A stretch of 64,000 nucleotides of DNA from a virus (IMGVR_UViG_3300049988_000245:1-64000); one strand, 5' to 3'; counted from the stretch's first letter, positions 1,049 through 62,540 are shown. Translations and numbers: made by a program. The notes: generated by a model not told the origin, from the letters alone.

Positions 1049-1323
1049 AGCTCTCAGAATTCCAAATCGATTTGGAATTCTACATGGGGGACAGCAGATG
1101 GCGCGTGACCGATGTTGGGTCACGCGCCGTTTGCGCGATCCACGTGGATGAGGCGGTCATCGCCAATGGGACGACGAAGACCACCTACAACAAGCGACAG
1201 GCCGAAGAGAACGGCTGGTTCAACGGGCCGCCCTACGGAGTGGCGGAGACCGTCATCGACGAATACGACCAAGATGCCTGCACACTCGCGTACGCGTATA
1301 TCCTTGGGATCGACAATGAGTGA
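1045..1323 (+). CDS. Hypothetical protein (92 aa)
   Basis: ATGA overlap with upstream stop; WRVTDVGSR and GPPYGVAETVIDEYD motifs. Confidence 0.7.
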   Translation: MKLSEFQIDLEFYMGDSRWRVTDVGSRAVCAIHVDEAVIANGTTKTTYNKRQAEENGWFNGPPYGVAETVIDEYDQDACTLAYAYILGIDNE

Positions 1324-1522
1324 CCTGATCCACATTGTGTGGTTGACGCATATCAAGAGCATTGCTGAGCGCGCCGAGAAGCAAGGCGAGGCGGCGTTTT
1401 GGCTTTTGCAGAACGTTGGATTGCGGAATGGCGCATGGTCGTCGGAGAGCTATGACCATTACATGGAATATCGGTTCGCCGATCCCAACCATGCGTTCGA
1501 ATTCAAGATGCGTTTCGGCTGA
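1316..1522 (+). CDS. Family-F small paralog (FxDxxxAFxFKMRW/F C-terminus)
   Basis: Ends YRFADPNHAFEFKMRFG. Confidence 0.75.
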   Translation: MSDLIHIVWLTHIKSIAERAEKQGEAAFWLLQNVGLRNGAWSSESYDHYMEYRFADPNHAFEFKMRFG

Positions 1523-1764
1523 TGGGCAGGCTGGTTACGCGCTTTCCGATACGGATACGCGATGAAGCAAGCTGGGTCTTGTTCGATGTCGCCTGCGCCA
1601 ATGCGGATGAGACTCTTGAAGAGATCAACGACTGGATGAAAACCCGTCCGACATACTATGCAATCACCAAGATTTTGAATCAACCCTATAATAGACCAGA
1701 TATCATACAGATCGCAATTACCAATCCTAATACGTCGTTCGAGTTCAAGTTCAAATTTGGCTGA
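1522..1764 (+). CDS. Family-F small paralog
   Basis: Ends IAITNPNTSFEFKFKFG; TGATG coupling. Confidence 0.7.
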   Translation: MGRLVTRFPIRIRDEASWVLFDVACANADETLEEINDWMKTRPTYYAITKILNQPYNRPDIIQIAITNPNTSFEFKFKFG

Positions 1765-1783
1765 CACGACCCCGTTATATTAT

Positions 1784-1815
1784 GGCTAAATACCTCAAAG
1801 CCTTGAGGTATAGCC
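1784..1815 (+). promoter_or_regulatory. Late promoter CTAAATA inside an RBS-sequestering hairpin
   Basis: CTAAATA 1786-1792; ATACCTCAA/TTGAGGTAT stem masks GAGG SD of the GTG at 1816. Confidence 0.6.
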
Positions 1816-3435
1816 GTGAATTTTGAAGCCGCCGCTTCCGAAACCTTCCAGATTCTTCGTTCATACGATTACGAAGTCATTCTGTTCAGCGACGAACACC
1901 AGCAGGTGTTCGAGCCCAGCGAGGCTCGCCGCTTTTTCGCCAAGCCCGTGAATCTCCTCGTATCCCTGGTCGATGACGGGGAGGATTCGGCTGTGCGTCT
2001 TTACCTGTCGAAGTCGATCCGGATTTCCGAAGTCATCGGACTGGTTTCAAGTCTTCGTACCATGGCCACTAAATATAAAATGGTTTTCAACGTGCGCGAG
2101 TACAATAAGGTGCTCAGCCCGAAGGATTTTGCCACGCAAGCATCCGTTACCGAATCTAAGGGGAACACTATGAATCTTGTCGAAGGAATGTACGGGACTT
2201 CTCGCAGTTCGTATTTGAAGCTGGAGAATGCCCGCATGATCGTTCGGCATTCGACCCGCATCAACGAGAACATCCTCGGTGCCCGTGGCCGCAATGTCGA
2301 GACCATCCACATTGAGGACAACCAGGGGCAGCGCTTCCTGATGCCGACCCAGCAGCTTGCTCCGGCCCGCGCCATGGCCCACCACGTGGACAACGGCGGC
2401 TCCTGGGCGGACACCGTGGGCGAGCAAATCTCCCGCATGGCCCAGAACTTTGCCGACCTCGGCGCCGCCTCCCGCCATATCGGCCACTATGCCCCCGAGC
2501 TTCACGAGAGCGCCGTCCAGATTCGCGACACCGTTCGCGAGTGCGCCCGAAACATGCGTCGCACCTTCGAATCACTCGGACGTAAGACCCGATACGCGGA
2601 TGTCGCCGAAGGTCTACGCCAGCTTGGTGAGACCCTGAACGAATCCTCCGACGAGGACTACCAGGGCAAGGTCACCGAACTCGCTGGCATGCTGAACACC
2701 GAGTCGGTCCAGCTTTCCGAGCGCGTGCTCACCACGGTCGCCCGCGTCGTCGAAGGCGCCGCCGCTCAGATCGTCGAGGACACATCGGAGACCATCTCAG
2801 TGCTGGGTCACGCGATCCATAAGGACGCATGGACGGCCTTCAAGGAAGGGCGCATCGATCTGACCCAGCCGGTCGCGGAAGTCCCTGGTAGCCCCGCGAA
2901 GACGTTTAAGGCCATCGTGGCGGCCACACAGGACGACACCCTGACGAACTTCCTTAGCTTCGTCCTGGGCGAGATGCTGAAACCAGTCGATCAGCGAACC
3001 GTAGATACGAAGAATCTCCGCGCCATCACCGCCAAGGTTCTCGCATCTGCGCAGAAGCAAATTGATCCGAACGAGCCTATGTCCGTCCCAGCAGTTCGAG
3101 AGTTCCTAGAATGGGCTGACAAGCACACGGTTCGATCGATTCATGAGACCACCGAGGAAGAAACCGAAACGGTCGAAGAGGACGGCTGCTTAGCCGACCG
3201 CGATCTCATGGGCCTCGATTCCGCACTTGAGGAAGAGACCGTGGATGAAAATTGCGGTGAGTGCGAAGGTGACGACCTGACTCAAGAGGATATCCTTCTG
3301 CCAGCAAAGAATGGCGATCTCAAATCTGAAGTCACAAAGTCTTCCGTAGAGGGAGAGAACGGCGAGCAGGCCCCGGACGATAACTACATTAATAGACTTC
3401 AGTCACTCGCTGGAGTTCGTGGCAGGGGATATTAA
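1816..3435 (+). CDS. Late hypothetical protein (539 aa), probable virion/head protein
   Basis: Long ORF with late promoter; many L/V-x-E sites; acidic tail ending RLQSLAG. Confidence 0.6.
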   Translation: MNFEAAASETFQILRSYDYEVILFSDEHQQVFEPSEARRFFAKPVNLLVSLVDDGEDSAVRLYLSKSIRISEVIGLVSSLRTMATKYKMVFNVREYNKVLSPKDFATQASVTESKGNTMNLVEGMYGTSRSSYLKLENARMIVRHSTRINENILGARGRNVETIHIEDNQGQRFLMPTQQLAPARAMAHHVDNGGSWADTVGEQISRMAQNFADLGAASRHIGHYAPELHESAVQIRDTVRECARNMRRTFESLGRKTRYADVAEGLRQLGETLNESSDEDYQGKVTELAGMLNTESVQLSERVLTTVARVVEGAAAQIVEDTSETISVLGHAIHKDAWTAFKEGRIDLTQPVAEVPGSPAKTFKAIVAATQDDTLTNFLSFVLGEMLKPVDQRTVDTKNLRAITAKVLASAQKQIDPNEPMSVPAVREFLEWADKHTVRSIHETTEEETETVEEDGCLADRDLMGLDSALEEETVDENCGECEGDDLTQEDILLPAKNGDLKSEVTKSSVEGENGEQAPDDNYINRLQSLAGVRGRGY

Positions 3436-8800: not shown

Positions 8801-9045
8801 GCGCTTGGTTCTATCAGGTTCCGGAGACGATGATTGCCCCAGACAACCGTGATCGGGGCTTTCGGTTTCAGTTCAACTACAATTATATGGGTAACGGGCA
8901 TTGGATGGATGTGTTCGAGGCCGTCGCCGAATGGTACGACGAAAACTTCGATGATCCCGAATGGACCCGTGTCGATGGAGGCGGCTTGACGCTGTTCTTC
9001 AAGGACGAAAACACCGCGTTCGAGTTCAAGATGAGGTTCTGCTGA
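8797..9045 (+). CDS. Family-F small paralog
   Basis: Ends LFFKDENTAFEFKMRFC. Confidence 0.8.
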   Translation: MSAWFYQVPETMIAPDNRDRGFRFQFNYNYMGNGHWMDVFEAVAEWYDENFDDPEWTRVDGGGLTLFFKDENTAFEFKMRFC

Positions 9046-10553: not shown

Positions 10554-11984
10554 TCAGTACTTCGCATACGCCTTTTTGAATCCCTCGACGCTGGTCTGCA
10601 AGGGCTCCATCAGAGTAGGCTCAACGTAGGAAGAGGCCGCCATCCGCTTGGTCACCGCATCGATATAGCAGGAGAACTTTCCTTCCGGGCTCGTGGTGAG
10701 CGCGATCGGTGCCCCGAGCAGGCTGGGGATCGACGGGTGCTGATCGAGTAGCGCCGTGTCCACGGACACACTCGCATCTTTGAACGAACTCACCGCCATC
10801 TTGAGGAAAAACGCCACGTCCTGGCCCTCGTCGTGCCGTGTAAACTCCTTCCCGAATCCGACATTCTTGTAGCCAAGCAGTAGGATGGGAATCTTCTTGG
10901 ACAAGGCGGCGTTGATAAATTCCGCCGTGACCCAGAGCGGCTGAGCCCCAACCACGTGCTGAGCCATCACCTTGACCCGCTGCCAGCCCGGATTGACCGT
11001 CGCGTTGATCTCTTCGACCAGGGCGAGACCCTTGGCGGACGAGCAAGAGACGCCAATCGCCTTGACGTATGTCTGCACGGCCTGGAGCTTGGCCGGGTCC
11101 GCGAGCCAGCGGTCCGACAGGGTCGTGAAGTTCGCCACCATCTCGTGCCCTGCGATTTCCTTGAGAATTTCGACGAAATCCGGATGGTCGGTCGGCTCTC
11201 CGCCGCCGATGGCGATCTCGAACACCTTCATCTTGGCGAGAAGATTGATGGTAGACCGAAGCGTCTTCATGCTGGCGTGCTTGCCCGCTTCGGTAGACGA
11301 CTGGTAGCAGAACTTGCACCCGGCGGCGCAGTAGTCGGTGATCTTGAGATCGACTAACTCAGGCACCGACGACTTCAGATAGGGTTCGTCCTTTACGGAC
11401 ATTCGCACCTTGTTACCTGTACGCTTGTCGAAGATCGTAATATGGTTTCCCTCCTCACGGACGGAGTTGTTGTAGCTCGACTTCAGCGTCTCGAACAACT
11501 CCTCTTCTTCGCAGCCATGCATGACGAAGGGATAGTTCGCCGAGTCGTCCCGGCCGCCGACCACGACGATGCGGTTGGACTGGAACAGGTTGATCAGCGT
11601 ATGGACATAGGCAGGGTGAAGTGGATCAGCCGGATGACTGATCTGTGAATTTCCAGAGACGTAGAAGTTGCCGTAGCCGTAGTTGTACTGCTCGTCGTCG
11701 TCCGTCTCCGTGGAGGCCACGAGTTCGGCAATGTTAGACAAATGCGGCGTGAAAATCTCGACAAGCTTCTTCTGATCGCAACCCCCGCCGAGGAGCAGGG
11801 CTGCAAGGTAACGCATCTTATCCTCGGTCGAAACCAAACGAAACTCCGTTTCACCAAAGGCGGTCTCGGTCTCGTTGATCGGCTCGAATTTGCCGACCAT
11901 GTCCTCGGGGATCAGCACGACCGAGTGGGACGAACTCGAATTGGTTGCGAATCCCGCACGAAGGTTATGAATGAAGATCGGCAT
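10554..11984 (-). CDS. Radical SAM protein with N-terminal GFATNSSSSHS domain
   Basis: CxxxCxxC (CAAGCKFC), GGGEP, NFTT; start MPIFIH with SD AAGGAG. Confidence 0.85.
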   Translation of the reverse strand: MPIFIHNLRAGFATNSSSSHSVVLIPEDMVGKFEPINETETAFGETEFRLVSTEDKMRYLAALLLGGGCDQKKLVEIFTPHLSNIAELVASTETDDDEQYNYGYGNFYVSGNSQISHPADPLHPAYVHTLINLFQSNRIVVVGGRDDSANYPFVMHGCEEEELFETLKSSYNNSVREEGNHITIFDKRTGNKVRMSVKDEPYLKSSVPELVDLKITDYCAAGCKFCYQSSTEAGKHASMKTLRSTINLLAKMKVFEIAIGGGEPTDHPDFVEILKEIAGHEMVANFTTLSDRWLADPAKLQAVQTYVKAIGVSCSSAKGLALVEEINATVNPGWQRVKVMAQHVVGAQPLWVTAEFINAALSKKIPILLLGYKNVGFGKEFTRHDEGQDVAFFLKMAVSSFKDASVSVDTALLDQHPSIPSLLGAPIALTTSPEGKFSCYIDAVTKRMAASSYVEPTLMEPLQTSVEGFKKAYAKY

Positions 11985-12777: not shown

Positions 12778-13547
12778 TGCAGGAATACATCTTTCCCTCA
12801 GACCCTTCGGTGGCCCGCAGGCTGGTCCAGTTAAGCCGGGTGACCCAAACACGGATTACCGTGGAGATTGAGGCTCTAGCCACACGCGGGCTTCTCGCAC
12901 CGGAAGACTTTGCCGGAGCACCATCCCTGACGGAGACCCAGCAGAAAGCAGTCCAGAAACTGATCGACTACCGCTTGCGTGGGGTGCTCTTGGGTGACTC
13001 CGACGACGGCGGGCGTAGCGCAATCCTGATGGCGTGCCGCCTCCAGGGGGTTCGGCCGATTCTCGTATGCACCCGGAGGGCCAGCCAGTGGGCACAGTCG
13101 GCCGAACTCTTTGGTCTCACCTGGGGTAGCGATCCCCTGGTGGACACGGACGTGCTGATCCTGAAAGCATCCGATATCCTACGTCAGGACGTGGTCCGGG
13201 ATCGTAGAAACGGCGTTCTGGTGATCGAGCACACTGATAAGTCCGACTTTGTCCAGGGAACGGAGAATAACGATCAGGCGATTACCCGTGAGTTTGCACG
13301 GGTAATCGTTCTAGCGAACTTCGGTTCGCTCACCCGGACGTTCCACTCGTGGACACGACAGTGTGACATCGCCCTTGGCGTGGCTCTCACCTACCTCTGG
13401 CCGGGCGAGATATTGAAGATTCTCAACCAGACCCATGCGAGGGTGATCGACCTAAAGAGCAGGGGATTCACAAAGTACCGCCCGGCAGACTTGTACTTTA
13501 TGTTCAACGTGATCCCCGACCTGCTGGGGGAACGCGGCCCGCGTTAG
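12774..13547 (+). CDS. Degenerate SNF2-like ATPase N-terminal domain
   Basis: LTETQQKAVQKL...VLLGDSDDGGRS aligns to motif I without the Walker A Lys; ILVC..ASQW. Confidence 0.45.
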   Translation: MMQEYIFPSDPSVARRLVQLSRVTQTRITVEIEALATRGLLAPEDFAGAPSLTETQQKAVQKLIDYRLRGVLLGDSDDGGRSAILMACRLQGVRPILVCTRRASQWAQSAELFGLTWGSDPLVDTDVLILKASDILRQDVVRDRRNGVLVIEHTDKSDFVQGTENNDQAITREFARVIVLANFGSLTRTFHSWTRQCDIALGVALTYLWPGEILKILNQTHARVIDLKSRGFTKYRPADLYFMFNVIPDLLGERGPR

Positions 13548-14008
13548 GACCACCGCATCCGGAATTCGAACGCGTCGTCCTGGCGGTGGAAGTCGATTCG
13601 ATCGTGTTTGAACCCCAACACGATATGGCGGCCACGCTGGTTCAGCCACTCCGCGATGTCGTCGCGGAGCTTGCGGTCATTCGATCCGTAGCGGACAGGA
13701 ACCCACATGTCCTTGGTCAAACGCACATGGGGGACCTCGGCACGCATCGTCAGGATCGGCCGGAACCAGAGAATGCGGATCGTCTCCGCATCCTTCGGGC
13801 ACTGCGGATCGTACTGGCCAATCATCCAGCGGGGCTGGCCGCCCTTCTGCTTCCATTCGAGATCGAAGTCCCCGTCGAGGCGCCGCCACGTCTTTCCGGG
13901 CGTCGTCCCCGTGGGGAGGCTCGCACTGTAGTCGGAAAGCTTCATGAACTCCAAGCAGTTCATCCGCATCACCGGGAGACTGTCGATGTACGCACGATGA
14001 TCGTTCAT
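13544..14008 (-). CDS. Family-F domain fused to an N-terminal DYSASLPTGTTPGKTW domain
   Basis: Ends IDFHRQDDAFEFRMRWS. Confidence 0.75.
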   Translation of the reverse strand: MNDHRAYIDSLPVMRMNCLEFMKLSDYSASLPTGTTPGKTWRRLDGDFDLEWKQKGGQPRWMIGQYDPQCPKDAETIRILWFRPILTMRAEVPHVRLTKDMWVPVRYGSNDRKLRDDIAEWLNQRGRHIVLGFKHDRIDFHRQDDAFEFRMRWS

Positions 14009-14241
14009 CCGAATCTCATCTTGAATTCAAATGCGGTGTTTGCATCAGTAAAAAAGAACATAATGATGTCGAAGTCGTCACGTTGATCTTGCACGTCGTA
14101 GGAGAATTCCCCAGCGGTATCGCCCGCGCCGCAGAACCCCATCATGGCGTCCCAACGCTCGTCCTCATCAAAGCCTATCTTCATCGGGACGCGATGGGTA
14201 AGATTCGGATCGAACTCGATCTCACAATTTTCCAGCGCCAT
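14005..14241 (-). CDS. Family-F small paralog
   Basis: Ends FFFTDANTAFEFKMRFG. Confidence 0.8.
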   Translation of the reverse strand: MALENCEIEFDPNLTHRVPMKIGFDEDERWDAMMGFCGAGDTAGEFSYDVQDQRDDFDIIMFFFTDANTAFEFKMRFG

Positions 14242-14480
14242 CAGCCGAACCTCATCTTGAACGCGAATGCCGTGTTCGGGTCGTTGAAGAAGAAGTCTAC
14301 TTCTTCCGGCTCGCCTTCATCGTTATCCACATAATTCCAGTCGAATTCCCCCGGATTGTCCTCGCTCTCACAAAATTCCAGCGCGGCCTCAAGCTTTGCT
14401 TGATCTAGGTCGGTCACACGGACACTGATCGTGTTGTCATCCGGATCGTAATACAGACTCTCGCTATTCTTCGCCATCAT
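14241..14480 (-). CDS. Family-F small paralog
   Basis: Ends FFFNDPNTAFAFKMRFG. Confidence 0.8.
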   Translation of the reverse strand: MMAKNSESLYYDPDDNTISVRVTDLDQAKLEAALEFCESEDNPGEFDWNYVDNDEGEPEEVDFFFNDPNTAFAFKMRFG

Positions 14481-14713
14481 CCGAACCTCATTTTGAAGGC
14501 GAAAGCGGTGTTCTCATTGGAGAAGTAGAACTCTCCCGTGTTGTCCGGACCGATACTAACCAGCCAGTCGAACGTTCCGATCGTATCGGGGTCCTGACAG
14601 AACGCCATCGCTTCTTTCCAGCGCGCGACATTGTCAAGGTCCGGATAAGCCACGGCGTACCCGTACCGCTTTTTCAGAACGTGCCTGTGCAGGGTTGGAT
14701 TGATAAGCGCCAT
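14477..14713 (-). CDS. Family-F small paralog
   Basis: Ends FYFSNENTAFAFKMRFG. Confidence 0.8.
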   Translation of the reverse strand: MALINPTLHRHVLKKRYGYAVAYPDLDNVARWKEAMAFCQDPDTIGTFDWLVSIGPDNTGEFYFSNENTAFAFKMRFG

Positions 14714-23315: not shown

Positions 23316-23639
23316 ATGCCGAACTACGTCTTTGTGGAGAAAACCGGGAAGGCGATCCGTCGTATTCTTGAGGTCAACTATCCGCACATCATTCACATCC
23401 CCGGATACCGGGGGTTCAAGGAGATGAACGAATGGTGCATAGTGCGATTCGGTAATAGCGCGTTGTTCGACGACACGCCCGATCGAACATACCAAACCAG
23501 CCTGTTCACTAGGGACCTGGGTCAGCCAACCCGAATCGACGTGTCCTGCATGTGGGCGGTACGATCGTCCGCATCCGATCTGATGTTCTACTTCAAGGAA
23601 CCCGACATGGCGTTCGAGTTCAAGGTTCGCTGGCGTTGA
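23316..23639 (+). CDS. Family-F small paralog
   Basis: EMNEWCIVRFG...FYFKEPDMAFEFKVRWR. Confidence 0.8.
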   Translation: MPNYVFVEKTGKAIRRILEVNYPHIIHIPGYRGFKEMNEWCIVRFGNSALFDDTPDRTYQTSLFTRDLGQPTRIDVSCMWAVRSSASDLMFYFKEPDMAFEFKVRWR

Positions 23640-24188: not shown

Positions 24189-24497
24189 ATGACCGCATTT
24201 ACGGAACAGAAAGAGCCTGAGGAGCGTTGGCTTTCTCTTGGTTTAGAAAAGGACTACTATAAGTCCATGTACCCGTACTGGTTCTCAGTACCCGAGACAT
24301 CCCGTTTTCCGTGCACAATTTTTCCGGAGGTGCACGAATGGTGCTCTGAACAATGGGGTGGACAATCGGCACGCCGCTGGTCGCAATCACGCGGAGCATG
24401 GCGGGTCCGCGATGATTCCACCTGGGCGTATTTTCGTGAGGTATTTTACTTCAAGGACCCCGACCACTGCGTGCTGTTTCAGCTACGGTGGCGCTGA
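24189..24497 (+). CDS. Family-F small paralog
   Basis: EVHEWCSEQWG...FYFKDPDHCVLFQLRWR. Confidence 0.8.
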   Translation: MTAFTEQKEPEERWLSLGLEKDYYKSMYPYWFSVPETSRFPCTIFPEVHEWCSEQWGGQSARRWSQSRGAWRVRDDSTWAYFREVFYFKDPDHCVLFQLRWR

Positions 24498-24787
24498 TGG
24501 CAAAGCAGCGCGTATGGAGGATTGGGATTGATTCGGACCCTCCGGCGGACTGGACCAGCGTGTACGTCGATGTCTCAAGAGTCCATCGAGGACGCTTCGA
24601 ACGTACCGAACCAGAATATCGAAACATTTCTTGGTGGGAGAATATGACAACTTGGATCGGCATGCAGCCGGGTGAGTACTGCTACGCCTTTGGGAATCGT
24701 AAACCAGAGTTCGACGGAGACAATCGCTACCTGTTCAAGTTCTCCGACCCTTTGGTAGCGTTTGAGTTCAAGATCGTATGGAGTTGA
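24497..24787 (+). CDS. Family-F small paralog
   Basis: Ends YLFKFSDPLVAFEFKIVWS; TGATG coupling. Confidence 0.75.
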   Translation: MAKQRVWRIGIDSDPPADWTSVYVDVSRVHRGRFERTEPEYRNISWWENMTTWIGMQPGEYCYAFGNRKPEFDGDNRYLFKFSDPLVAFEFKIVWS

Positions 24788-25454: not shown

Positions 25455-26133
25455 TCTAGTCGATTTTCCGTGCCCCTATTGCACCCGGAGATTCAAGAGG
25501 GAGGCTAGTCTGTTCGCCCATATGTGCGCGAAGAAGCAGCGGCATGTCGATCGGGATGAACGGTATGTCAAGCTAGGATTTCAAATTTTCCAGAAATTCT
25601 ATTCGCTTCATTACAAGTCGTCTAAGCCGCGAACGTACGATGACTTCGCGTCGAATCAGTTCTACGGAGCGTTTACGAAATTCTCCAAATATCTACTTGC
25701 GATCAACGCAGTGAATCCCAACGGGTTCGTGGACTTTCTGCTGAAGATCAATCTGAAGATCGACCAGTGGCATCTGCCTCCGGTGTATGAACTCTACCTG
25801 CGCGAACTCACCAAGAAGGAAACCGCAGACGCCGCGCTGGAGCGGAACTTCCGGGTGATGGAGCGCTGGGGGACCGAGTACGGCGAGGACTGGAAGGACT
25901 TCTTCCGCAAGGTCGCTCCGTCAGAGGCCGTCCTGATGATCACCGCAGGGAGAATCAGTCCCTGGGTCCTTTATACGGCGCAATCCTCGGCCGATCTGTT
26001 CTCCCGGATGTCGTCGGAGCAGATCGACCTCATCCAACCCGCGTTGGACCCGCAATTTTGGGAGCGCAAGCTCTCTGACCATGCCGAAGAAGTGTCGGCG
26101 ATTCGTGAAGTATTGGAAGAGGTTGGAATCTGA
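25414..26133 (+). CDS. C2H2 zinc-finger-containing protein (start uncertain)
   Basis: FPCPYCTRRFKREASLFAHMC. Confidence 0.7.
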   Translation: MPPRKKPASPKSADLVDFPCPYCTRRFKREASLFAHMCAKKQRHVDRDERYVKLGFQIFQKFYSLHYKSSKPRTYDDFASNQFYGAFTKFSKYLLAINAVNPNGFVDFLLKINLKIDQWHLPPVYELYLRELTKKETADAALERNFRVMERWGTEYGEDWKDFFRKVAPSEAVLMITAGRISPWVLYTAQSSADLFSRMSSEQIDLIQPALDPQFWERKLSDHAEEVSAIREVLEEVGI

Positions 26134-26366
26134 TGGAAATCTGGAGAGGAATAGACGGGAAAGTTCTCGGATGGCGGGCAGATGCACGCAAGGACACCGG
26201 GTTCGTCCACAAAGCCTGGGACGCGTTCGATGCCCGCCTCACACCCGAGGCTGAGCTTTGGTTCGAACAGTCAGAGAGCGCCAATTATACGACGCTTGGT
26301 TTACATGCATTCATTCATATTAGTTCACCCAATGATCGGCTTCACTTCAAACTTAAATGGCTGTAA
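26133..26366 (+). CDS. Family-F small paralog
   Basis: Ends IHISSPNDRLHFKLKWL. Confidence 0.65.
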   Translation: MEIWRGIDGKVLGWRADARKDTGFVHKAWDAFDARLTPEAELWFEQSESANYTTLGLHAFIHISSPNDRLHFKLKWL

Positions 26367-27155: not shown

Positions 27156-27266
27156 AGGGCATGGCCGCCGGATTATCCAGGCGGACAGCACACCGATCCC
27201 GAGAGTCCCGAACAGGGCCGTCAGCGGAAGGATGATGAACAGAAACGTATCGGCGGAGACCATCAT
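27123..27266 (-). CDS. 47-aa single-TM peptide (not in ORF track)
   Basis: MMVSADTFLFIILPLTALFGTLGIGVLSAWIIRR...; TGATG coupling to paralog. Confidence 0.5.
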   Translation of the reverse strand: MMVSADTFLFIILPLTALFGTLGIGVLSAWIIRRPCPSRVVHDDAKP

Positions 27267-27526
27267 CACGACCACCTGATCCTGAATTCGAACGCGTCAT
27301 CGTCGTCTCGAAAAACGAACGTCGTGCCACCGTGCTGGTCGATAAAGCCCCAGCGACCCTGAGACTCTTTCTCACGCCGACGCCATGTCTTACCGATCAT
27401 GCTGCGGTCACCGAAATGCTCAAGGCACCACAGATGGACAATGGCTTTATTGTCCCACGGGCCTTTGAACACGTGGTAGTAGCCGGGATACCAGAGGGCA
27501 TCGCTCAGGCTGTAGGTGTATGCCAT
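27266..27526 (-). CDS. Family-F small paralog
   Basis: LWCLEHFG...FVFRDDDDAFEFRIRWS. Confidence 0.8.
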   Translation of the reverse strand: MAYTYSLSDALWYPGYYHVFKGPWDNKAIVHLWCLEHFGDRSMIGKTWRRREKESQGRWGFIDQHGGTTFVFRDDDDAFEFRIRWS

Positions 27527-27858
27527 CGAAGCTTGAACTCGATCGCCTCATGGGCGTGCTCGAACAGGTAATCGTGCGTCAGGTGCGACTCCGAGACGAC
27601 GATCCATGTCCCGGTTGACCACGACACGTACGCGGTGTCCATGGCATTCGAAATCAGGCAGGGCGTGCCGATCCGCTCCCATATCCAGCGGGTAATCTCC
27701 TCATCGAGATCGCTCGTTGGCACTTTGATCGTGACCACGTGGGGGAATTTTTCCCGTAAAAACGGAATCATAAGAATGTGATTCGACCTCGGCGAAATCC
27801 ATTCCTCGTTGCGCTCCCAACTGCGCTCGAACTTGGTATCGTCGAGGCTCAGCATCAT
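27505..27858 (-). CDS. Family-F paralog
   Basis: Ends YLFEHAHEAIEFKLRWHTPTA. Confidence 0.75.
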   Translation of the reverse strand: MMLSLDDTKFERSWERNEEWISPRSNHILMIPFLREKFPHVVTIKVPTSDLDEEITRWIWERIGTPCLISNAMDTAYVSWSTGTWIVVSESHLTHDYLFEHAHEAIEFKLRWHTPTA

Positions 27859-28076
27859 CCCCACATGATCCTCACGGCGCTCGCCATGCCCCGGTCGGAG
27901 CAATGGAAGGTGATCGTCTCACCCAAAGTGAAACAGAACGAGAGGCGTTCCGGAGGCTTGTCCGGCTTCGCCTCCCATGTGAGATGCACCCAATCTTGCA
28001 TCTCCCAAATCGGGGGATGTCCTGGCTTCATGGGCACCTGATAGATCAGTTTGGCGTTATGTCCGATCGGCGGCAT
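27855..28076 (-). CDS. Family-F small paralog
   Basis: Ends FHCSDRGMASAVRIMWG. Confidence 0.65.
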   Translation of the reverse strand: MPPIGHNAKLIYQVPMKPGHPPIWEMQDWVHLTWEAKPDKPPERLSFCFTLGETITFHCSDRGMASAVRIMWG

Positions 28077-28510: not shown

Positions 28511-28876
28511 TCAACTACCTAGCTGGACCGAGAGCGACCCGAACATCATTTTGAACGCAAACGCCGTATTGGCATCACTGAACGAGAATCGATGCCGGTA
28601 TCCGACGATCGGAAAGACCACGTCCATCTGACTGTAGACGTGGAAGATTTCTTCCTCGTTGGTGAAGTAGACGTTATCCACCGTGTTGTGGCGAATCTTC
28701 CTCTCCCGGTGGACGTATGAGCCGGGCAACGCGACATCATCCAACCAAGCTTCGATCTCGGGCATGCATGCGTACCGGTGGGGTCGCATCGGGTTGGGTC
28801 CGGTAAAAATCTCGTCGATTTCTACCTCGGCCGTTTGGTCACCCAACCGGTACAGGTCGTCCAGGCGGCGCGCCAT
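28511..28876 (-). CDS. Family-F paralog
   Basis: EIEAWL...FSFSDANTAFAFKMMFG. Confidence 0.75.
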   Translation of the reverse strand: MARRLDDLYRLGDQTAEVEIDEIFTGPNPMRPHRYACMPEIEAWLDDVALPGSYVHRERKIRHNTVDNVYFTNEEEIFHVYSQMDVVFPIVGYRHRFSFSDANTAFAFKMMFGSLSVQLGS

Positions 28877-29954: not shown

Positions 29955-30227
29955 TCAAGCCATCGGGAAGTCGCACTTCTGGAAGCCCGTCATGGTGTCG
30001 TGCCAGCCTAGAAGCTCGTTGCCGATCTGCAAGAACCGGACGATATTGGCCTTGTCAAACATGTCGCCGTTCTGATGCGCGCGGGCAAAAATCAGAAAAA
30101 TCTGCTCGGATTCCTTGTAGATCGCTCGAACTTCTTTCTCGTTTGAAGGCATTGCCGTGATAATCTCTTGGGCCATCACCGCATAGGACTTCATCTTCGA
30201 GCTTAAATCGATTTTCTCACCCATCAT
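29955..30227 (-). CDS. Hypothetical protein
   Basis: ATGA-coupled ORF with SD GAGGTGG. Confidence 0.6.
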   Translation of the reverse strand: MMGEKIDLSSKMKSYAVMAQEIITAMPSNEKEVRAIYKESEQIFLIFARAHQNGDMFDKANIVRFLQIGNELLGWHDTMTGFQKCDFPMA

Positions 30228-30460
30228 ACCCACCTCATTTTAAATGCCGTTGCATCGTCTAAACGCTTAAAATACCAATCGTATCCAGACTTTGCGTCGA
30301 GAAACACATCGGTAATCAGACGATTACCGAGCAGGTCTTGCAGCCAATTCTCCATTTCGGGCTGCATACTGTTGTAACTGCGCTTCGCCTTCACGTGGAA
30401 GTCATAGCGGTTCATCCATTCGGTCGGGTCGATCGAGTCGTCCGCGTCTGGCTCCCTCAC
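30224..30460 (-). CDS. Family-F small paralog
   Basis: GTGA overlap with serS stop; ends WYFKRLDDATAFKMRWV. Confidence 0.7.
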   Translation of the reverse strand: MREPDADDSIDPTEWMNRYDFHVKAKRSYNSMQPEMENWLQDLLGNRLITDVFLDAKSGYDWYFKRLDDATAFKMRWV

Positions 30461-32180: not shown

Positions 32181-32798
32181 ATGGCCCTTGTTAATACTGA
32201 CATCGACATTGACTTCGCGAATCGTGATCATGCCCTGAAGGGGCTGCATCATATTCCAGCCACCGTTCGGGATTCGATCGGACGCCACACCCGGCACGTC
32301 TCGGGGGTCTATTTCCAGCCCGTCCCGATCGACCCCCTCAGCGGGCTGTCCGCGTACGCCTATGACGAGGCGGCCGAACGCGGCTATTTTAAAATCGATT
32401 TCCTGAACAACTCGATCTATCAGGGCATTCGGGACGAAGCCCATCTGGACGAACTCCTCGCGAAGGAAGTCGAGTGGGAGTTATTTGATGAATCAACCTT
32501 CGTGGAGGAGCTTCCTCATATTGGGAATCACTTCGGCACAGTCCAATCGATCAAGCCGCGCTCGATCGAAGACCTCGCGGTGATTCTCGCCCTGATGCGT
32601 CCGGGCAAGCGCTACCTGATTGGTCAGCCCCGGTCGAAGGTGGACGAGGAAATCTGGAAGCCTGACCCGAAGGGGTACCACTTCAAGCGCGCCCACGCCA
32701 TCGCATACTCAGTATCCATTATCGTGAAACTCCATTTGCTTATTGAACAGCTTGGTTCTTCGATCGATGCGGAAAAAGCCAACGATGCCCTCTTCTAG
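32181..32798 (+). CDS. dnaE: Short DNA polymerase III alpha (DnaE)-like catalytic-core protein
   Basis: DIDIDF, RHVSGVY, GYFKIDFL, LALMRPG, FKRAHAIAY; no PHP domain. Confidence 0.75.
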   Translation: MALVNTDIDIDFANRDHALKGLHHIPATVRDSIGRHTRHVSGVYFQPVPIDPLSGLSAYAYDEAAERGYFKIDFLNNSIYQGIRDEAHLDELLAKEVEWELFDESTFVEELPHIGNHFGTVQSIKPRSIEDLAVILALMRPGKRYLIGQPRSKVDEEIWKPDPKGYHFKRAHAIAYSVSIIVKLHLLIEQLGSSIDAEKANDALF

Positions 32799-33165
32799 CC
32801 TACACGCGGGCTATCCCCGGTGGGGGGACGATCTCTACTTGGTCGGCGACGTGTATGATTCTGAAACGAGCAAGCAGATTTGGACCTGCCTGATCATGCG
32901 AATCTATGATCACGAGAAAGACCTCGATCGTGGCCGATTCGAAAATTTCAAGCGCGAAACTCGGGAGTTCACCGTCTCGTTCAAGCTGACCAATCAGTCC
33001 CAACCCTGGGCCACCCTCATCGGACCGATGATCAACTGGATCGCCGAGATCGGCAATCAGCCATGGAGCTTGGACATCGACATCCTACACGTGGGCGAGG
33101 GGCGGTTCGACTTCAGCTTCGACGAACTCGATGTGGCGACGATGTTCAAGCTGGTGTTCGCATGA
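32785..33165 (+). CDS. Family-F paralog
   Basis: Ends FSFDELDVATMFKLVFA. Confidence 0.7.
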   Translation: MPSSSLHAGYPRWGDDLYLVGDVYDSETSKQIWTCLIMRIYDHEKDLDRGRFENFKRETREFTVSFKLTNQSQPWATLIGPMINWIAEIGNQPWSLDIDILHVGEGRFDFSFDELDVATMFKLVFA

Positions 33166-33404
33166 ACTACCAGTTCGACGTCGAGAGCGCGTGGTTTCCC
33201 GTCCACGAGAGCCCGAAGCCGCGCAAGGATTGGTTCCGGAAGCGCTACGAGGTGCTGGCCGAATGGCTGGACGAAAACACCCCGGAGTGGAAGTTCAGGG
33301 CGGAACTAGACAATTACGAGTACGACTCGATCTACTCGTTCTATCGAATCGTCGTTCAGTTCGATGAAGAGGATGACGCATTCCTCTATAAGATGCGCTG
33401 GTGA
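33162..33404 (+). CDS. Family-F small paralog
   Basis: LAEWLDEN...VQFDEEDDAFLYKMRW. Confidence 0.8.
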   Translation: MNYQFDVESAWFPVHESPKPRKDWFRKRYEVLAEWLDENTPEWKFRAELDNYEYDSIYSFYRIVVQFDEEDDAFLYKMRW

Positions 33405-33439
33405 TTCTATAGGGTGTTTATAAGGCTTTAAATAGCTTT

Positions 33440-33884
33440 ATGACCTATCAGAACCCTCCCCGTGGCGGTATCGTCCAGCCAAACTCAAAGCATAGCTATC
33501 GTGTCAAGTTTCGCGGTGGCTTCATCGATACCTCGGAATCCTACCTTGATTTCATGCAAAACATGATCTCGGTAGACCTAGACCTTGTCGCGAAGCGCAT
33601 CACCCTGGTGCCGGGACGACATTCTGGCGCTCGCCTCACAGCATATCGCAAAAATGCTGAAGCTGTCTGAATCCGATATCTGCATCGAGCATCTGTCGAA
33701 CTGTGCCGACGTGGTCTCGGTGAAGTCGTTCTCTCACTGCGAGGCGGTCTCGCACACGTACAAGCTCGATTATGCCGAGGCGGGTGCTGCCACACACACG
33801 CTGGTGTTCTCCTATTACGACTTTCGCACCTATCTGGCGCGCAAGCCCATCGATCCGGTTGAAGAGTTCGATCCGGTCATTTAG
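33440..33884 (+). pseudogene. Late gene apparently split by a +1 frameshift (33440-33670 and 33585-33884)
   Basis: TTAAATA promoter; second frame reads as a natural continuation and has no SD. Confidence 0.4.
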
Positions 33885-34144
33885 CACCAGCGCATCTTGA
33901 AATCGAACGCGTCGATTTCTTCGCGGAACATGATCTTTGGCGCCTCATGGTGCCAGAGCTTCTTTCGCTTCATCCGGTCCTCACACCACTGGACGACCTC
34001 AGAGAACTCTTTGGGCAACATACCTCTAGGTCCGATGAACCGGTACGGGTAATGACGATCCAAAGGAGACCCACCGATCCACCGACCGGTCTGGCGGTCA
34101 TAATAGTTATAGCTCCCTCGTTTCATCTCGATGAATTTTAGCAT
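33881..34144 (-). CDS. Family-F small paralog
   Basis: EVVQWCE...IMFREEIDAFDFKMRWC. Confidence 0.8.
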   Translation of the reverse strand: MLKFIEMKRGSYNYYDRQTGRWIGGSPLDRHYPYRFIGPRGMLPKEFSEVVQWCEDRMKRKKLWHHEAPKIMFREEIDAFDFKMRWC

Positions 34145-34145
34145 C

Positions 34146-37028: not shown

Positions 37029-37310
37029 ATGTCGATCGAACGCGCTATCCGCTACGCCACCTCGCGCATGGACGCCGGGCGCGTCGCTCGTGATTATGGC
37101 GAGTTCTCCATGTGGCGCAGCCGAATGAAGTGGCTTCGCGAGAAAGTCCGCCTCTACAAGTCCGCAGCCGCTGAGATTGCTCGGGACGAACTCCACATCC
37201 TCGTTGAGGAGAATGCTCGCCGGTCTCCCGACCTTCACCCGAAAATCCTCGCCTACCGGATCAGGTCGTCCGCTGCGGCCGAGGAAATGCTTTTGAGACT
37301 CGGCGGATGA
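37029..37310 (+). CDS. Hypothetical protein
   Basis: SD AGGAG; basic helical protein. Confidence 0.6.
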   Translation: MSIERAIRYATSRMDAGRVARDYGEFSMWRSRMKWLREKVRLYKSAAAEIARDELHILVEENARRSPDLHPKILAYRIRSSAAAEEMLLRLGG

Positions 37311-37609
37311 AGTTTCGCCCGACCAGCCCGACCATGTTCATGCTGGACCTACCATTCGTCGGACCGAACGAGTGGGAATCCAAACTGATCCGGAAGAACG
37401 ATACCCTCAAGGCGGTATTCGACGCTGGCTGGTGGTGGTGCGTCCGTCAGCATGGCGAGCCGAAGTCGATTGGAGTACGCGATTCCGACGATGACTGGAT
37501 TTGGTCGTTCTTCGGGTTCTATCCCCTCCGGCGCGAAGGAACGCTTCGTTCAGGCATCTACTTCAAGGACCCGAATGCGGCGTTCCACTTTCGGCTGGCC
37601 TGCTGTTAA
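37307..37609 (+). CDS. Family-F small paralog
   Basis: WWCVRQHG...IYFKDPNAAFHFRLACC. Confidence 0.75.
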   Translation: MKFRPTSPTMFMLDLPFVGPNEWESKLIRKNDTLKAVFDAGWWWCVRQHGEPKSIGVRDSDDDWIWSFFGFYPLRREGTLRSGIYFKDPNAAFHFRLACC

Positions 37610-56158: not shown

Positions 56159-56413
56159 TCAACCCCATCGCATCTTGAAGGCGAACGCGTCATTCTCATC
56201 GGAAAAATAGAATGCGTCGCCTGCATCGATCCAGCGATTGCAATAGGTGGACCTGTGGGACGGGTACAAGACGGGTCCGAACTGCTCCGTGCACCACTCA
56301 ATCATCTCGGGGCTGGCCCCGTCATTAGTCCAGATCAGATGAGGGAATTGCCGATAGAGGTTCTTTTCCCTGATGGCTTGGCGCTTGGCCAACACGCTAT
56401 CCCAAAGGCTCAT
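56159..56413 (-). CDS. Family-F small paralog
   Basis: EMIEWCTEQFG...FYFSDENDAFAFKMRWG. Confidence 0.82.
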   Translation of the reverse strand: MSLWDSVLAKRQAIREKNLYRQFPHLIWTNDGASPEMIEWCTEQFGPVLYPSHRSTYCNRWIDAGDAFYFSDENDAFAFKMRWG

Positions 56414-56631
56414 CAGCCCCACCGCATCTTGCAGGCAAATGCCGTATTTTTATCGGTGAAGTATAGACGCTGGCACTTCTCGGTCGAGTCATATGCCAGC
56501 GTCCACTTACCCTTTTGTTCGGGAAGAGTTAACCAATCCCGAACATAACCGAGATACTTGATTTTCTCTCGATCGAGGATGAAGCTCTCCGGCATCTCGG
56601 TATGTCGATGATGCGGGAGATACTTCGCCAT
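56413..56631 (-). CDS. Family-F small paralog
   Basis: Ends LYFTDKNTAFACKMRWG. Confidence 0.8.
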   Translation of the reverse strand: MAKYLPHHRHTEMPESFILDREKIKYLGYVRDWLTLPEQKGKWTLAYDSTEKCQRLYFTDKNTAFACKMRWG

Positions 56632-61041: not shown

Positions 61042-61051
61042 GGTCGATTCC

Positions 61052-61321
61052 TTACTGTGTGATCGTGGGGTTCTTGATTCCGGCCCACCGAATACGAAAA
61101 TGGAAGGCCGTGTTCTCATCGCTGAAGTAATACAACTCGTATCCATCAGCGTGGTACCAGTATCCGGGCTGATCGGTACACCATTCCCGGAGTTCTTTAC
61201 TGTAGTTGAAGTTCCTTTTTCCCAAATAGACTTTGTGGACTTTTCCCCACTTCTTTCGAATGTGGTTAAGGAGAAAATCTTTGTGCCGCATCTCTGGTGG
61301 TCGGTTCTCGTAATTCGTCAT
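61052..61321 (-). CDS. Family-F small paralog
   Basis: ELREWC...YYFSDENTAFHFRIRWA. Confidence 0.8.
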   Translation of the reverse strand: MTNYENRPPEMRHKDFLLNHIRKKWGKVHKVYLGKRNFNYSKELREWCTDQPGYWYHADGYELYYFSDENTAFHFRIRWAGIKNPTITQ

Positions 61322-61323
61322 GA

Positions 61324-61899
61324 TCACTTCCACCTCAGTGTGTACATGATCGCGTCATGCTGGTACTCGAACGCGATACCTACGGTGGTGGAACAGCCCG
61401 AGGCCCATCCCACACGCTTGTGCTGGCCCATGCAGGTGTCGGCCAACCAAACTTCGATTTCCTGAAGCTTCTTCACGTCGAAGCGGATGACCTTCATCAG
61501 GTACCAACTTGGGTCGATCTGGAGCGTCGCCTTCAGGGAGGCCATCTGCGCCTGATCCTCCCATTTCTCAGTGCCGACGAAGTTCGAATCCGTGTAGCCG
61601 TATTCGCCCGGCTCCCACTGATCCGCCTCGGGTAGCGCACAGATGCGCGTCAGGCCCTCGTGGAGCTTGGCGAGCAGTTCCGGGTCATTGGCGTTGCCTT
61701 CTTCCTCGAACGCCACGCCAGGGCTGTCGAAGGTCACCTGAAGGTAGGCGTCCTTCGTGAGGGAGAAGAACAGGGAGGAATTGTACTGACGGTCGATCGA
61801 ACACCCGATCTCGGTGTCCTCCGCGTCGAGTTCGGCGTCGTCTGGTAGGGCTGGAAGGCGGGCGAGCAGAGTCGCCCAATCTCTTTCGAGATCAGTCAT
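61324..61899 (-). CDS. Family-F domain with acidic N-terminal extension
   Basis: EIEVWL...IAFEYQHDAIMYTLRWK; SD GGAG. Confidence 0.75.
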   Translation of the reverse strand: MTDLERDWATLLARLPALPDDAELDAEDTEIGCSIDRQYNSSLFFSLTKDAYLQVTFDSPGVAFEEEGNANDPELLAKLHEGLTRICALPEADQWEPGEYGYTDSNFVGTEKWEDQAQMASLKATLQIDPSWYLMKVIRFDVKKLQEIEVWLADTCMGQHKRVGWASGCSTTVGIAFEYQHDAIMYTLRWK

Positions 61900-62102
61900 G
61901 GAGGTCTCCGGAATGTGATGGGGTTGAAACGCAGAAACGCCCGCCGCCGGAATCAACCGGTGACGAGCGTCAGATAGGCAAACTGTGGGCGAGCAGGCGA
62001 AACGGCCGGTGATCCGGGCCAGGAACGCGATGATCGCGGAAAGGCGGTTCTACAAGGTCATGAGGGGAATCTAGCGCAGCCGTGTCGGACTGGCAATATG
62101 AT

Positions 62103-62540
62103 TTATCTGCCTGTGCACCACGTAATTTTGAACTGCATCGCGGTTGCCAAATCCTCGAACAGATAGTGTTTGCGAACGGCGTCACCTCGCCAAAGCGTAG
62201 GTGGATTCCCGGCAATGGCGCGAGACCCTAGGCGCTGCCTCATCGTGCGCTCATCCGTAGTCAGATCGACGAGCGTTTCCCAGCGCTTTACCACACCGGT
62301 TCCGCAATCATACGCCCAGCTTTCAGGCGTATCGAAGCCGCTAGATCGAGATGGGAAGCGGCGCGTTGTCATGAACCTATCGAGACGAGAAACTTCGTGG
62401 AAATGGTGTTGATTCTGGATCAGCGCGATAACCTGTGCATCCAAATCCCATTCGTCTGCCCACATGATCCGGCAAGGGTTTGGTCGGTCTCGGTCGCCAC
62501 GCTCGGTGCGCCAAACACCATCCGAACCCTGCCACCACAT
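62103..62540 (-). CDS. Family-F domain protein
   Basis: Ends YLFEDLATAMQFKITWCTGR. Confidence 0.7.
   Translation of the reverse strand: MWWQGSDGVWRTERGDRDRPNPCRIMWADEWDLDAQVIALIQNQHHFHEVSRLDRFMTTRRFPSRSSGFDTPESWAYDCGTGVVKRWETLVDLTTDERTMRQRLGSRAIAGNPPTLWRGDAVRKHYLFEDLATAMQFKITWCTGR

What the first reader, a model, noticed from the sequence alone, without database searches (positions are those of the whole stretch)
1316..62540. About 31 dispersed small paralogs sharing a C-terminal F-x-D-x3-A-F-x-F-K-M-R-W/F motif
Seen: 27 clear and 4 divergent ORFs (most 68-145 aa; about 9.5 kb, ~15% of the window) end in variants such as FFKDENTAFEFKMRFC, FYFSDENDAFAFKMRWG and LWFEDPNEAMWFKMQWY. Most have an upstream E-x-x-(E)-W-(C/L) helix. 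They occur singly and in tandem runs (13544-14713, 27266-28459, 32785-34589, 56159-56631, 61052-62540) on both strands, inserted between core genes. The middle region is hypervariable, and some members carry extra N-terminal domains (TM anchor at 34146, acidic domain at 61324, LPTGTT domain at 13544). Inference: a conserved small alpha/beta scaffold with a variable surface, expanded as a library of host-protein binders or anti-defence factors. Similar motifs may exist in related jumbo phages; I know of no assigned function.
Basis: partly seen in the sequence, partly recalled or inferred. Interest (0 to 1): 0.75.

Follow-up and report, generated by a model that had tools for sequence, protein, structure and literature searches.

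The report
Ninety-copy small-protein family in jumbo phage
An uncultured giant phage from leaf and silage samples spends about a tenth of its DNA on some 95 old, individually conserved copies of one tiny undescribed protein domain ending in ...AFxFKMRW; its job is untested, but two cultured phages of Sinorhizobium and Agrobacterium also carry it, so it can be studied at the bench.

Summary
Shuffled and reversed controls gave none. The whole 266-kb contig, which CheckV rates 57% complete, holds about 93-100 copies. That is 10.5% of the DNA and roughly one gene in five.

Two members modelled separately share one fold: strand, helix, strand, strand, helix, a ferredoxin-like sandwich lacking the last strand. 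No Pfam, PHROG, NCBIfam or PDB family matches.

The family is phage-specific. It forms 1,097 clusters at 50% identity in metagenomes. Copy number runs from 3 (Agrobacterium phage Atu_ph07) and 5, through about 40 (Sinorhizobium phage Phosso), to 56 in one 75-kb fragment.

The copies are old: the best within-genome match is about 36% identical. They are syntenic in a relative and under purifying selection (median dN/dS 0.17, neighbours 0.07). So this is not a hypervariable library.

New here: family genes are chained by stop/start overlap, and the Arg codon of the terminal motif becomes AGR exactly where it serves as the next gene's ribosome-binding site.

Function remains inferred: probably a set of intracellular protein binders. 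This scan had already noted the same family in other windows of this genome.

The parts
1316..1522 (+). family member, 68 aa, ends KMRFG
   Evidence: HMM E 2.5e-11; gene model
1579..1764 (+). divergent member, ends KFKFG (start uncertain: 1522 or 1579)
   Evidence: borderline with the window profile (E 0.003-0.006); E 1e-6 with the genome profile
8830..9045 (+). family member, ends KMRFC
   Evidence: E 1.9e-14
13544..14008 (-). member with an extra N-terminal LPTGTT domain, 154 aa; last gene of a four-gene coupled array
   Evidence: E 1.6e-11; sequence; N-terminal part hits phrog_24427
14005..14241 (-). minimal member, 78 aa
   Evidence: E 3.3e-11; stop/start overlap
14241..14480 (-). minimal member, 79 aa
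   Evidence: E 4.1e-13; AGG Arg codon plus TGATG overlap
14477..14713 (-). minimal member, 78 aa; modelled
   Evidence: E 3.1e-12; AF2 pLDDT 82, strand-helix-strand-strand-helix
20036..20320 (-). member, ends FRLTWT
   Evidence: E 2e-11; orthologue 67% identical, dN/dS 0.18
23316..23639 (+). member with a long helix1-strand2 loop
   Evidence: E 2.1e-11; dN/dS 0.15
24192..24497 (+). member, ends FQLRWR (start uncertain)
   Evidence: E 6e-12
24497..24787 (+). member, ends FKIVWS
   Evidence: E 2.6e-8; dN/dS 0.15
26133..26366 (+). divergent member, ends FKLKWL
   Evidence: E 8.3e-6; dN/dS 0.20
27266..27526 (-). member; absent from the syntenic relative
   Evidence: E 6.2e-13; no tblastn hit in L028/L030
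27505..27858 (-). member with a 5-residue C-terminal tail
   Evidence: E 1.2e-11
28511..28876 (-). member, ends FKMMFG plus a tail
   Evidence: E 1e-7
30224..30460 (-). member directly downstream of the seryl-tRNA synthetase gene
   Evidence: E 1.1e-11; Pfam hit of the neighbour
32785..33165 (+). borderline member, ends FKLVFA
   Evidence: E 0.003-0.05; hhalign probability 49%; 94% identical in the relative
33162..33404 (+). member, ends YKMRW
   Evidence: E 1.9e-8
33881..34144 (-). member, 87 aa (not 215 aa)
   Evidence: E 4.3e-13; start fixed by the 89-aa orthologue in L009
34146..34589 (-). member with an N-terminal transmembrane helix; mostly deleted in a silage strain
   Evidence: E 7.4e-10; hydropathy 2.76; dN/dS 0.19; a contig skips 34216-34616
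37307..37609 (+). divergent member, ends FRLACC
   Evidence: E 6.1e-7
56159..56413 (-). member; modelled
   Evidence: E 2.1e-18; AF2 pLDDT 85
56413..56631 (-). member, coupled to 56159-56413
   Evidence: E 2.6e-12
61052..61321 (-). member with a 10-residue C-terminal tail
   Evidence: E 1e-15
61324..61899 (-). member with an acidic N-terminal domain; its subfamily is conserved in Atu_ph07 (gp258)
   Evidence: E 2.9e-10; sequences
62103..62540 (-). divergent member, ends FKITWCTGR
   Evidence: E 5.2e-6
27855..28076 (-). possible very divergent member (ends VRIMWG); judged by eye only
   Evidence: sequence; hhalign probability only 1.9%

Best explanation
SHOWN. The ORFs encode one real, phage-specific domain of about 60-80 aa. 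Its predicted topology is strand1-helix1-strand2-strand3-helix2, a ferredoxin-like two-layer sandwich without the fourth strand. The family signature is mostly the hydrophobic core plus two basic residues: W-C/L and the E-x-F-G cap of helix 1, the aromatic of strand 2, F-x-F of strand 3, and A-F-x-F-K-M/L-R-W of helix 2. The helix1-strand2 loop (about 3 to 40 residues), the N-terminal extensions and the net charge all vary.

The copies are ancient paralogues. Each is kept under purifying selection, mostly at fixed genomic positions, with occasional loss between strains. They are expressed as translationally coupled chains at the distal ends of gene runs. The stop overlaps the next ATG (TGATG). 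The Arg and Trp codons of the terminal motif (AGG TGG), lying 5-8 nt upstream, act as the next gene's Shine-Dalgarno sequence.

INFERRED. The proteins are non-virion, mostly cytoplasmic, single-domain binders. Each has its own fixed partner, either a host protein or another phage protein. Together they form a repertoire for host takeover or counter-defence that expanded from about 3-5 ancestral copies in this phage lineage. The confidence figure refers to this functional reading. That the family is real is near certain.
For: Family and copy number: with controls.

Shared fold in two separately modelled members: pLDDT 85 and 82.

No known family. The nearest structures are only generic ferredoxin-like or ABM-type folds (Z up to 6, TM about 0.6) or uncharacterised phage proteins.

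Phage-specific: 1,097 clusters at 50% identity. Contexts are phage contigs. Atlas neighbours are 86-100% viral. None was confirmed in 185,579 prokaryote species genomes.

Lineage-specific expansion: Atu_ph07 has 3 copies, a complete 500-kb relative has 5, Phosso has 37-40, G001 has 56 in 75 kb, and this contig has about 95.

Old copies: the median best within-genome identity is 36%, and only 11 of 93 have their nearest paralogue within 2 kb.

Purifying selection and synteny: 14 of 15 members have positional orthologues. The median family dN/dS is 0.17, against 0.074 for neighbours. Amino-acid identity is 76% against 87.5%.

Dispensable singly: one member is absent in the relative, and one has a clean 401-nt deletion in a silage strain.

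Coupling: 62% of family genes abut or overlap the upstream stop, against 27% of other genes. The motif Arg is AGR in 24 of 42 coupled cases, 5 of 33 uncoupled cases, and 8.5% genome-wide. This was replicated in other phage contigs.

Against a nucleic-acid role: pI ranges from 4 to 10.7, and the domain median is 5.5.

Against a virion role: the two annotated Atu_ph07 members (gp255 and gp258 by my count) are not in the 131-protein virion table of PMC6102473.
Against: No partner, phenotype or expression datum exists for any member. No RNA data set was available.

Timing could not be set from promoters. Only 1 of 26 family-first genes has the late-like ATAAATAC element directly upstream. However, several arrays lie 3-7 kb downstream of such an element in the same gene run.

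Purifying selection and old, stable copies fit an arms-race library less well than a set of fixed housekeeping-like interactions. The partners could therefore be the phage's own proteins.

Small proteins are easily missed by virion mass spectrometry. My Atu_ph07 gp numbering is inferred from gene order.
Confidence: 0.4

Rival explanations
1. The proteins work on the phage's own processes rather than on the host. They could be small chaperones, assembly factors or regulators, each paired with a particular phage protein.
For: The copies are old, positionally stable and under purifying selection. Many sit directly downstream of, and are translationally coupled to, larger phage genes: seryl-tRNA synthetase, RNA ligase and ClpP.
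Against: Copy number ranges from 3 to about 95 among related phages with similar core gene sets. This is hard to explain if each copy serves a core phage protein. Single members are lost between close strains.
Confidence: 0.2
2. The proteins are adaptors on a common hub. The conserved helix pair would dock on one shared partner, for example the phage ClpP or a host Clp or Lon machine. The variable surface would recruit different substrates, as F-box proteins do.
For: There is a near-invariant K/R-x-R-W C-terminal helix that almost always ends one residue before the stop. The phage encodes a ClpP immediately downstream of one member. Relatives are reported to carry several Clp genes (PMC11242549).
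Against: The conserved residues are mostly hydrophobic and are modelled at pLDDT above 90 as part of the fold core, not as a free docking peptide. The fixed C-terminal length is also explained by the ribosome-binding-site spacing. No binding test was possible.
Confidence: 0.07
3. The proteins are small DNA- or RNA-binding proteins, such as transcription factors or nucleoid or RNA modulators, using the exposed face of the sheet as RRM or ACT-like folds do.
For: The weak structural neighbours include RRM, ACT and ribosomal-protein domains. Conserved aromatic and basic residues lie on strands 2-3 and helix 2.
Against: The median domain pI is 5.5, and 54 of 93 domains are acidic. The structural Z scores are at most 6, the background level for this common fold. 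The conserved aromatics alternate as core-facing residues.
Confidence: 0.1
4. The proteins are virion-internal or ejected proteins, packaged and delivered with the DNA.
For: Several arrays lie in gene runs headed by a late-like ATAAATAC element. Jumbo phages package many small proteins.
Against: The two annotated Atu_ph07 members are not among the 131 virion proteins listed. Only 1 of 26 family-first genes has the late-like element directly upstream, against 44 of 185 other genes.
Confidence: 0.08
5. The copies are selfish or neutral duplicated filler, small gene cassettes that spread by recombination with no benefit to the phage.
For: The copies are dispersed on both strands between core genes, and some copies are lost between strains.
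Against: All 13 usable orthologue pairs have dN/dS of 0.07-0.28. There are no recent duplicates, with a best paralogue identity of about 36%. Synteny is conserved in 14 of 15 cases. I did not search for flanking repeats.
Confidence: 0.04

Closest known systems
Lineage-specific expansion of about 35 zinc-ribbon proteins in Bacillus phage G (Iyer et al. 2021, PMC7824862)
   Same: One small domain is amplified to dozens of copies in a single jumbo-phage lineage. Its function is inferred only.
   Different: The fold is unrelated: a zinc ribbon there, a metal-free alpha/beta sandwich here. This family has about three times more copies. It is shared at low copy number with relatives and occurs in alphaproteobacterial T4-like (group 2.2-type) phages.
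Giant small-protein families of RaK2/121Q-type jumbo phages
   Same: They have tens of diverged small paralogues, take up about a tenth of the genes, occur in tandem arrays, and have a conserved helix with a variable remainder.
   Different: The signatures differ. My profile, which finds Phosso and Atu_ph07 members, finds nothing in RaK2 or BcepSauron. Homology is not shown.
Dimeric alpha+beta barrel / ABM and other ferredoxin-like domains (Pfam PF03992 ABM, PF04175 DUF406, ACT, RRM)
   Same: The arrangement of strand-helix-strand-strand-helix is the same, with both helices on one face of the sheet. TM is 0.5-0.6 and Z is 5-6.
   Different: There is no fourth strand and no sequence similarity. 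None of the catalytic or ligand motifs are present. The scores are at the background level for this very common fold.
Small early 'hyperplastic region' genes of T4-type phages and small phage anti-defence proteins (such as anti-CRISPRs); comparison from general knowledge
   Same: They are short single-domain phage proteins of no enzymatic family. They are clustered, variable between relatives, and dispensable one at a time.
   Different: Those are many unrelated families with one or a few copies each. Here a single family has about 95 copies. No defence-inhibiting activity was tested.

Membership tests
The ...AFxFK(M/L)RW family itself (undescribed; defined here) | Profile match over about 65 residues, including the W-C/L helix, the strand-2 aromatic, F-x-F and the terminal A-F-x-F-K-M/L-R-W | tested here: met
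   25 window ORFs at E<1e-3 plus 1 borderline; 0 in the controls
The ...AFxFK(M/L)RW family itself | Common predicted fold among members | tested here: met
   Models of 56162-56416 and 14480-14713 both give strand-helix-strand-strand-helix at pLDDT 85 and 82. Only two members were modelled.
Any Pfam-A, PHROG or NCBIfam family | Score above threshold, or a consistent sub-threshold hit across members | tested here: not met
   20 proteins scanned singly and 60 scanned as a set. There were only scattered single hits at E>0.002, and no family was hit twice.
ABM / dimeric alpha+beta barrel superfamily | Full beta-alpha-beta-beta-alpha-beta unit that dimerises into a barrel | tested here: inconclusive
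   The fourth strand is absent from both models. The structural matches are weak. The homodimer prediction gave no verdict.
RRM / ACT-type nucleic-acid or ligand-binding ferredoxin-like domains | RNP1/RNP2 motifs or a ligand loop, and a significant structural match | tested here: inconclusive
   Z is 4.5-5.3, at background level. No motif was recognisable in the alignment.
Virion structural or internal proteins | Detected in the purified virion proteome | not testable with these tools
   Indirect only: Atu_ph07 gp255 and gp258 are not listed in the published virion table. There are no data for this phage.
Anti-defence proteins (Acr, Tad, Acb and the like) | Sequence or structure match to a known inhibitor, or inhibition shown | tested here: inconclusive
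   The only hit was AcrIF13 at E 1.5, which is chance level. The PADLOC library was not scanned. No activity was tested.

The most novel reading that the evidence does not exclude
The family is a phage-encoded adaptor repertoire. The invariant helix pair would plug every member into one common machine, such as the phage's own ClpP-based protease. The roughly 95 different surfaces would each deliver a different host protein to it. This would be a bacteriophage analogue of the F-box or BTB substrate-receptor expansions of eukaryotes and giant viruses.
Probability: 0.06. Interest if true: 0.9.

Novelty: new variant of a known kind. Interest (0 to 1): 0.62.

Why it matters
The contig holds roughly 95 copies and is estimated to be only 57% complete. 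That is well above the ~35-copy zinc-ribbon family of Bacillus phage G, which the one comparative review I read called unprecedented (PMC7824862). The domain has no entry in Pfam, PHROGs or NCBIfam, yet it forms more than a thousand sequence clusters in metagenomes.

The copy-number range among relatives, from 3 to about 95, offers a natural experiment on why jumbo phages grow by amplifying small genes. The family also occurs in cultured phages: Phosso on Sinorhizobium meliloti and Atu_ph07 on Agrobacterium tumefaciens. Its function can therefore be tested directly by deletions, pull-downs and structures.

The finding that a conserved protein C-terminus doubles as the next gene's ribosome-binding site is a clean example of dual coding. 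It explains part of the motif's fixed position.

Tried and rejected
- Homodimer prediction for the 78-aa member gave no verdict (score 0.00). It is evidence neither for nor against binding.
- The search for related loci with the 25-sequence alignment failed because no stretch was conserved enough. With a 30-aa block it confirmed nothing in prokaryote genomes, but the short query makes this weak.
- tblastn of single members against 50,697 GenBank phages found nothing. The profile search of whole records was needed to find the Phosso and Atu_ph07 copies.
- The search for fused forms with known domains found none, within length limits of 34-378 aa.
- Sequencing runs: no RNA holder was listed, so there is no expression evidence either way. 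The laid contigs were too fragmentary to rank variation by gene.
- Promoter-based timing was inconclusive. 57 of 86 members could not be assigned to either the TTGACR-N14-TGTAYATT class or the ATAAATAC class.
- The canonical T4 late box TATAAATA is not clearly enriched: 9 sites against about 3 expected.
- Relatives of a virus record cannot be drawn by the genome search.
- RaK2 and BcepSauron have no match to the profile. The weak BFVD fold hits to these phages are therefore not evidence of membership.
- Literature searches found no description of the family.


Full report
**Observation**

A regular-expression scan of all six frames found 16 ORFs that end, within 0-5 residues of the stop, in [FY][KR][MVIL][RQK][WF] preceded by ...D-x-x-x-A-F-x-F. 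A profile built from the last 50 residues of 14 of these recovered 22 window ORFs at E<1e-3. Eight of the 22 were not in the seed. Four more were borderline. Iterating on the whole contig (265,895 bp, 56% GC; the window is its first 64 kb) converged on 93-95 ORFs. hhalign added about five very divergent ones.

Reversed ORFs and ten shuffled windows gave no hit at E<0.01. By my gene models, the window holds 26 members covering 7.8 kb, or 12%. The contig holds about 93 members covering 27.9 kb, or 10.5%. That is about 22% of roughly 418 genes called with a crude caller. CheckV rates the contig 57% complete, so the true count may be higher.

For example, 33881-34528 is really the 87-aa gene 33881-34144, as its 89-aa orthologue shows. 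The TM anchor, the acidic domain and the LPTGTT domain are all present.

**Anatomy**

Across 245 domains from at least eight phage contigs, these positions are most conserved:
- W (93%) followed by C or L in helix 1, then E-x-F-G, with the G at 85%;
- an aromatic residue in strand 2 (98%), often preceded by R;
- F-x-F in strand 3;
- D-x-x-D-A-F-x-F-K/R-M/L-R-W/F, usually followed by one residue (G or C) and the stop.

AlphaFold2 models of two different members show the same order of elements: strand, helix, strand, strand, helix. They are 56162-56416 (pLDDT 85) and 14480-14713 (pLDDT 82). An optional N-terminal helix or short strand may precede the core.

The conserved residues are mostly hydrophobic. 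In both models helix 2 lies in the stretches of pLDDT above 90. I infer that the signature is mainly the folding core. The variable parts are the helix1-strand2 loop (about 3 to 40 residues), the N-terminal extensions and the charge. Whole-protein pI runs from 4.1 to 10.7, and the domain median is 5.5. Three of 93 members have a transmembrane segment.

**What it is not**

- Pfam, PHROGs and NCBIfam give no consistent hit for 80 proteins scanned.
- A profile search of PDB sequences gives nothing better than E 0.25.
- Foldseek against PDB gives nothing at E<=0.001.
- VIA-align gives Z up to 6.0 to assorted ferredoxin-like domains, which is below the usual background for this tool.
- AlphaFold DB and the ESM Atlas give ABM, DUF406 and chlorite-dismutase-type domains at TM about 0.5-0.6, along with uncharacterised viral proteins.
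- BFVD gives only uncharacterised proteins of large phages.

**Distribution**

An exhaustive profile search of 1.84 billion representatives found 1,097 clusters at E<=0.001. Those I looked up come from metagenome assemblies and carry no name or only 'hypothetical protein'. Their contexts are phage contigs with arrays of small genes, ranging from 59% GC down to 35% GC. Atlas neighbours are 86-100% viral. A pattern scan of 185,579 prokaryote species genomes confirmed none, though that test used a short query and is weak.

Single-sequence tblastn against GenBank phages found nothing. The profile, run over whole records, found the following:
- 37-40 copies in Sinorhizobium phage Phosso (469 kb);
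- 3 copies in Agrobacterium phage Atu_ph07 (490 kb);
- 5 copies in a complete 500-kb IMG/VR relative whose DnaB-like helicase is 57% identical;
- 56 copies in a 75-kb IMG/VR fragment.

RaK2 and BcepSauron have none. The family is thus old in this group of alphaproteobacterial jumbo phages and was strongly amplified in some lineages. The member with the acidic N-domain (61324-61899) has a recognisable counterpart in Atu_ph07, which points to an ancestral subfamily.

**Age and selection**

Within the genome, the best paralogue match has a median identity of 36% over short local alignments. No pair looks recent. Only 11 of 93 members have their nearest paralogue within 2 kb. About half match a copy in another phage fragment better than any copy at home.

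A 65.7-kb contig of a related phage is syntenic with window positions of about 13-35 kb. There, 14 of 15 members have positional orthologues, and 27266-27526 is missing. Family dN/dS is 0.07-0.28 (median 0.17), against a median of 0.074 for 33 neighbouring genes (Mann-Whitney p=0.013). Amino-acid identity is 76% against 87.5% (p=0.0004). A second relative gives dN/dS 0.19 for the TM-anchored member.

A silage-metagenome strain carries a clean 401-nt deletion that removes most of that same gene. So the copies are functional genes that evolve about twice as fast as their neighbours and can be lost one at a time. They are not hypervariable.

**Expression architecture (new here)**

Family genes start at or inside the upstream stop codon in 62% of cases, against 27% for other genes (p=7e-8). 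They lie towards the distal end of co-directional gene runs (median relative position 0.67 against 0.43, p=7e-4).

The typical junction reads ...AAG ATG AGG TGG NNN TGA TG.... The Arg codon of the motif is AGA or AGG in:
- 24 of 42 members followed by an overlapping start;
- 5 of 33 members without one (p=3e-4);
- 8.5% of Arg codons in long ORFs genome-wide.

The same contrast holds in independent contigs: 14/27 against 1/18 in G001, and 10/22 against 0/12 in L002-L005. I conclude that the R-W codons double as the Shine-Dalgarno sequence of the next gene. This helps to explain why the protein so often ends exactly one residue after the W. The motif is also conserved as K-W or R-W in a 35% GC phage, where codon usage was not examined. 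The protein-level constraint is therefore probably primary.

**Timing**

Two promoter-like classes exist. The first is a very regular TTGACR-N14-TG-TAYATT element whose -10 box ends 24-28 nt before the start codon. The second is a T4-late-like ATAAATAC element 30-45 nt before the start. Only 1 of 26 family-first genes has the late-like element directly upstream, against 44 of 185 other genes. However, most members are internal to gene runs, and 57 of 86 cannot be assigned to either class. I leave timing open.

The published Atu_ph07 virion proteome (131 proteins) does not list the two annotated members. These are gp255 and gp258 by my count from gene order (PMC6102473). This is weak evidence for a non-virion role.

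**Interpretation**

The data fit a stable alpha/beta scaffold whose variable loop, sheet face and N-terminal add-ons give each paralogue its own partner. The broad and mostly acidic charge range argues against a common nucleic-acid-binding role. The range of copy numbers among relatives, and the loss of single copies, argue for accessory functions such as host interaction or counter-defence. The age, synteny and purifying selection argue that each copy has a fixed job, and they keep open the rival that the partners are phage proteins. I put 0.4 on the intracellular-binder reading. The hub-adaptor idea is unexcluded but unsupported; a ClpP gene lies next to one member.

**Habitat and earlier notes**

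Near-identical DNA occurs in leaf and silage metagenomes from several studies. Earlier follow-ups in this scan, on other windows of the same contig, reported the same roughly 90-copy family (e1-5370894 and e1-5370934). My counts agree with theirs. I found no paper that describes the family.

Noticed in passing
window: -10 box ends at 18353(-), 28487(-), 29931(-), 37003(+), 37656(+); 13 exact copies in the contig: A very regular promoter-like element, TTGAC[AG]-N14-TG-TA[TC]ATT, followed by a conserved ATCAGC. It is always intergenic. Its -10 box ends 24-28 nt before a start codon. It is probably the phage's strong host-sigma-70-type (early?) promoter together with a conserved leader.
   Followed up: partly
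window, e.g. 49672 (before the 1375-aa Ig-repeat gene), 45386, 5097; 41 intergenic sites in the contig: A T4-late-like element, [ACT]TAAATA[CTA], is enriched about 15-fold in upstream regions. It lies mostly 30-45 nt before start codons of large, probably structural genes.
   Followed up: partly
G000 174001-174543 (outside the window): The phage encodes a true ClpP protease subunit (PF00574, E 2e-74). It lies directly downstream of family member 173572-173877 in the same gene run.
   Followed up: no
window 34216-34616: A contig from a silage metagenome strain joins cleanly across this 401-nt stretch. That strain therefore lacks most of the TM-anchored family member.
   Followed up: partly
window 13544-14008, N-terminal about 90 residues: The N-terminal LPTGTT-containing part of this member matches phrog_24427, of unknown function (E 2.8e-5). 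It seems to be a separate small phage domain fused to the family domain. A paralogue at G000 236180-236914 shares 50% identity over 40 aa.
   Followed up: no
Atu_ph07 MF403008.1 347400-347579, minus strand (locus L013): A family-type ORF (E 6e-7) lies in a gap between the annotated genes AUZ95236 and AUZ95237. It is not annotated in GenBank.
   Followed up: no
window 10554-11984, 28876-29904, 30457-31749: The window also encodes a radical-SAM protein, an RNA ligase (Pfam family seen on the relative's orthologue) and a full seryl-tRNA synthetase. Each has a family member close by.
   Followed up: no
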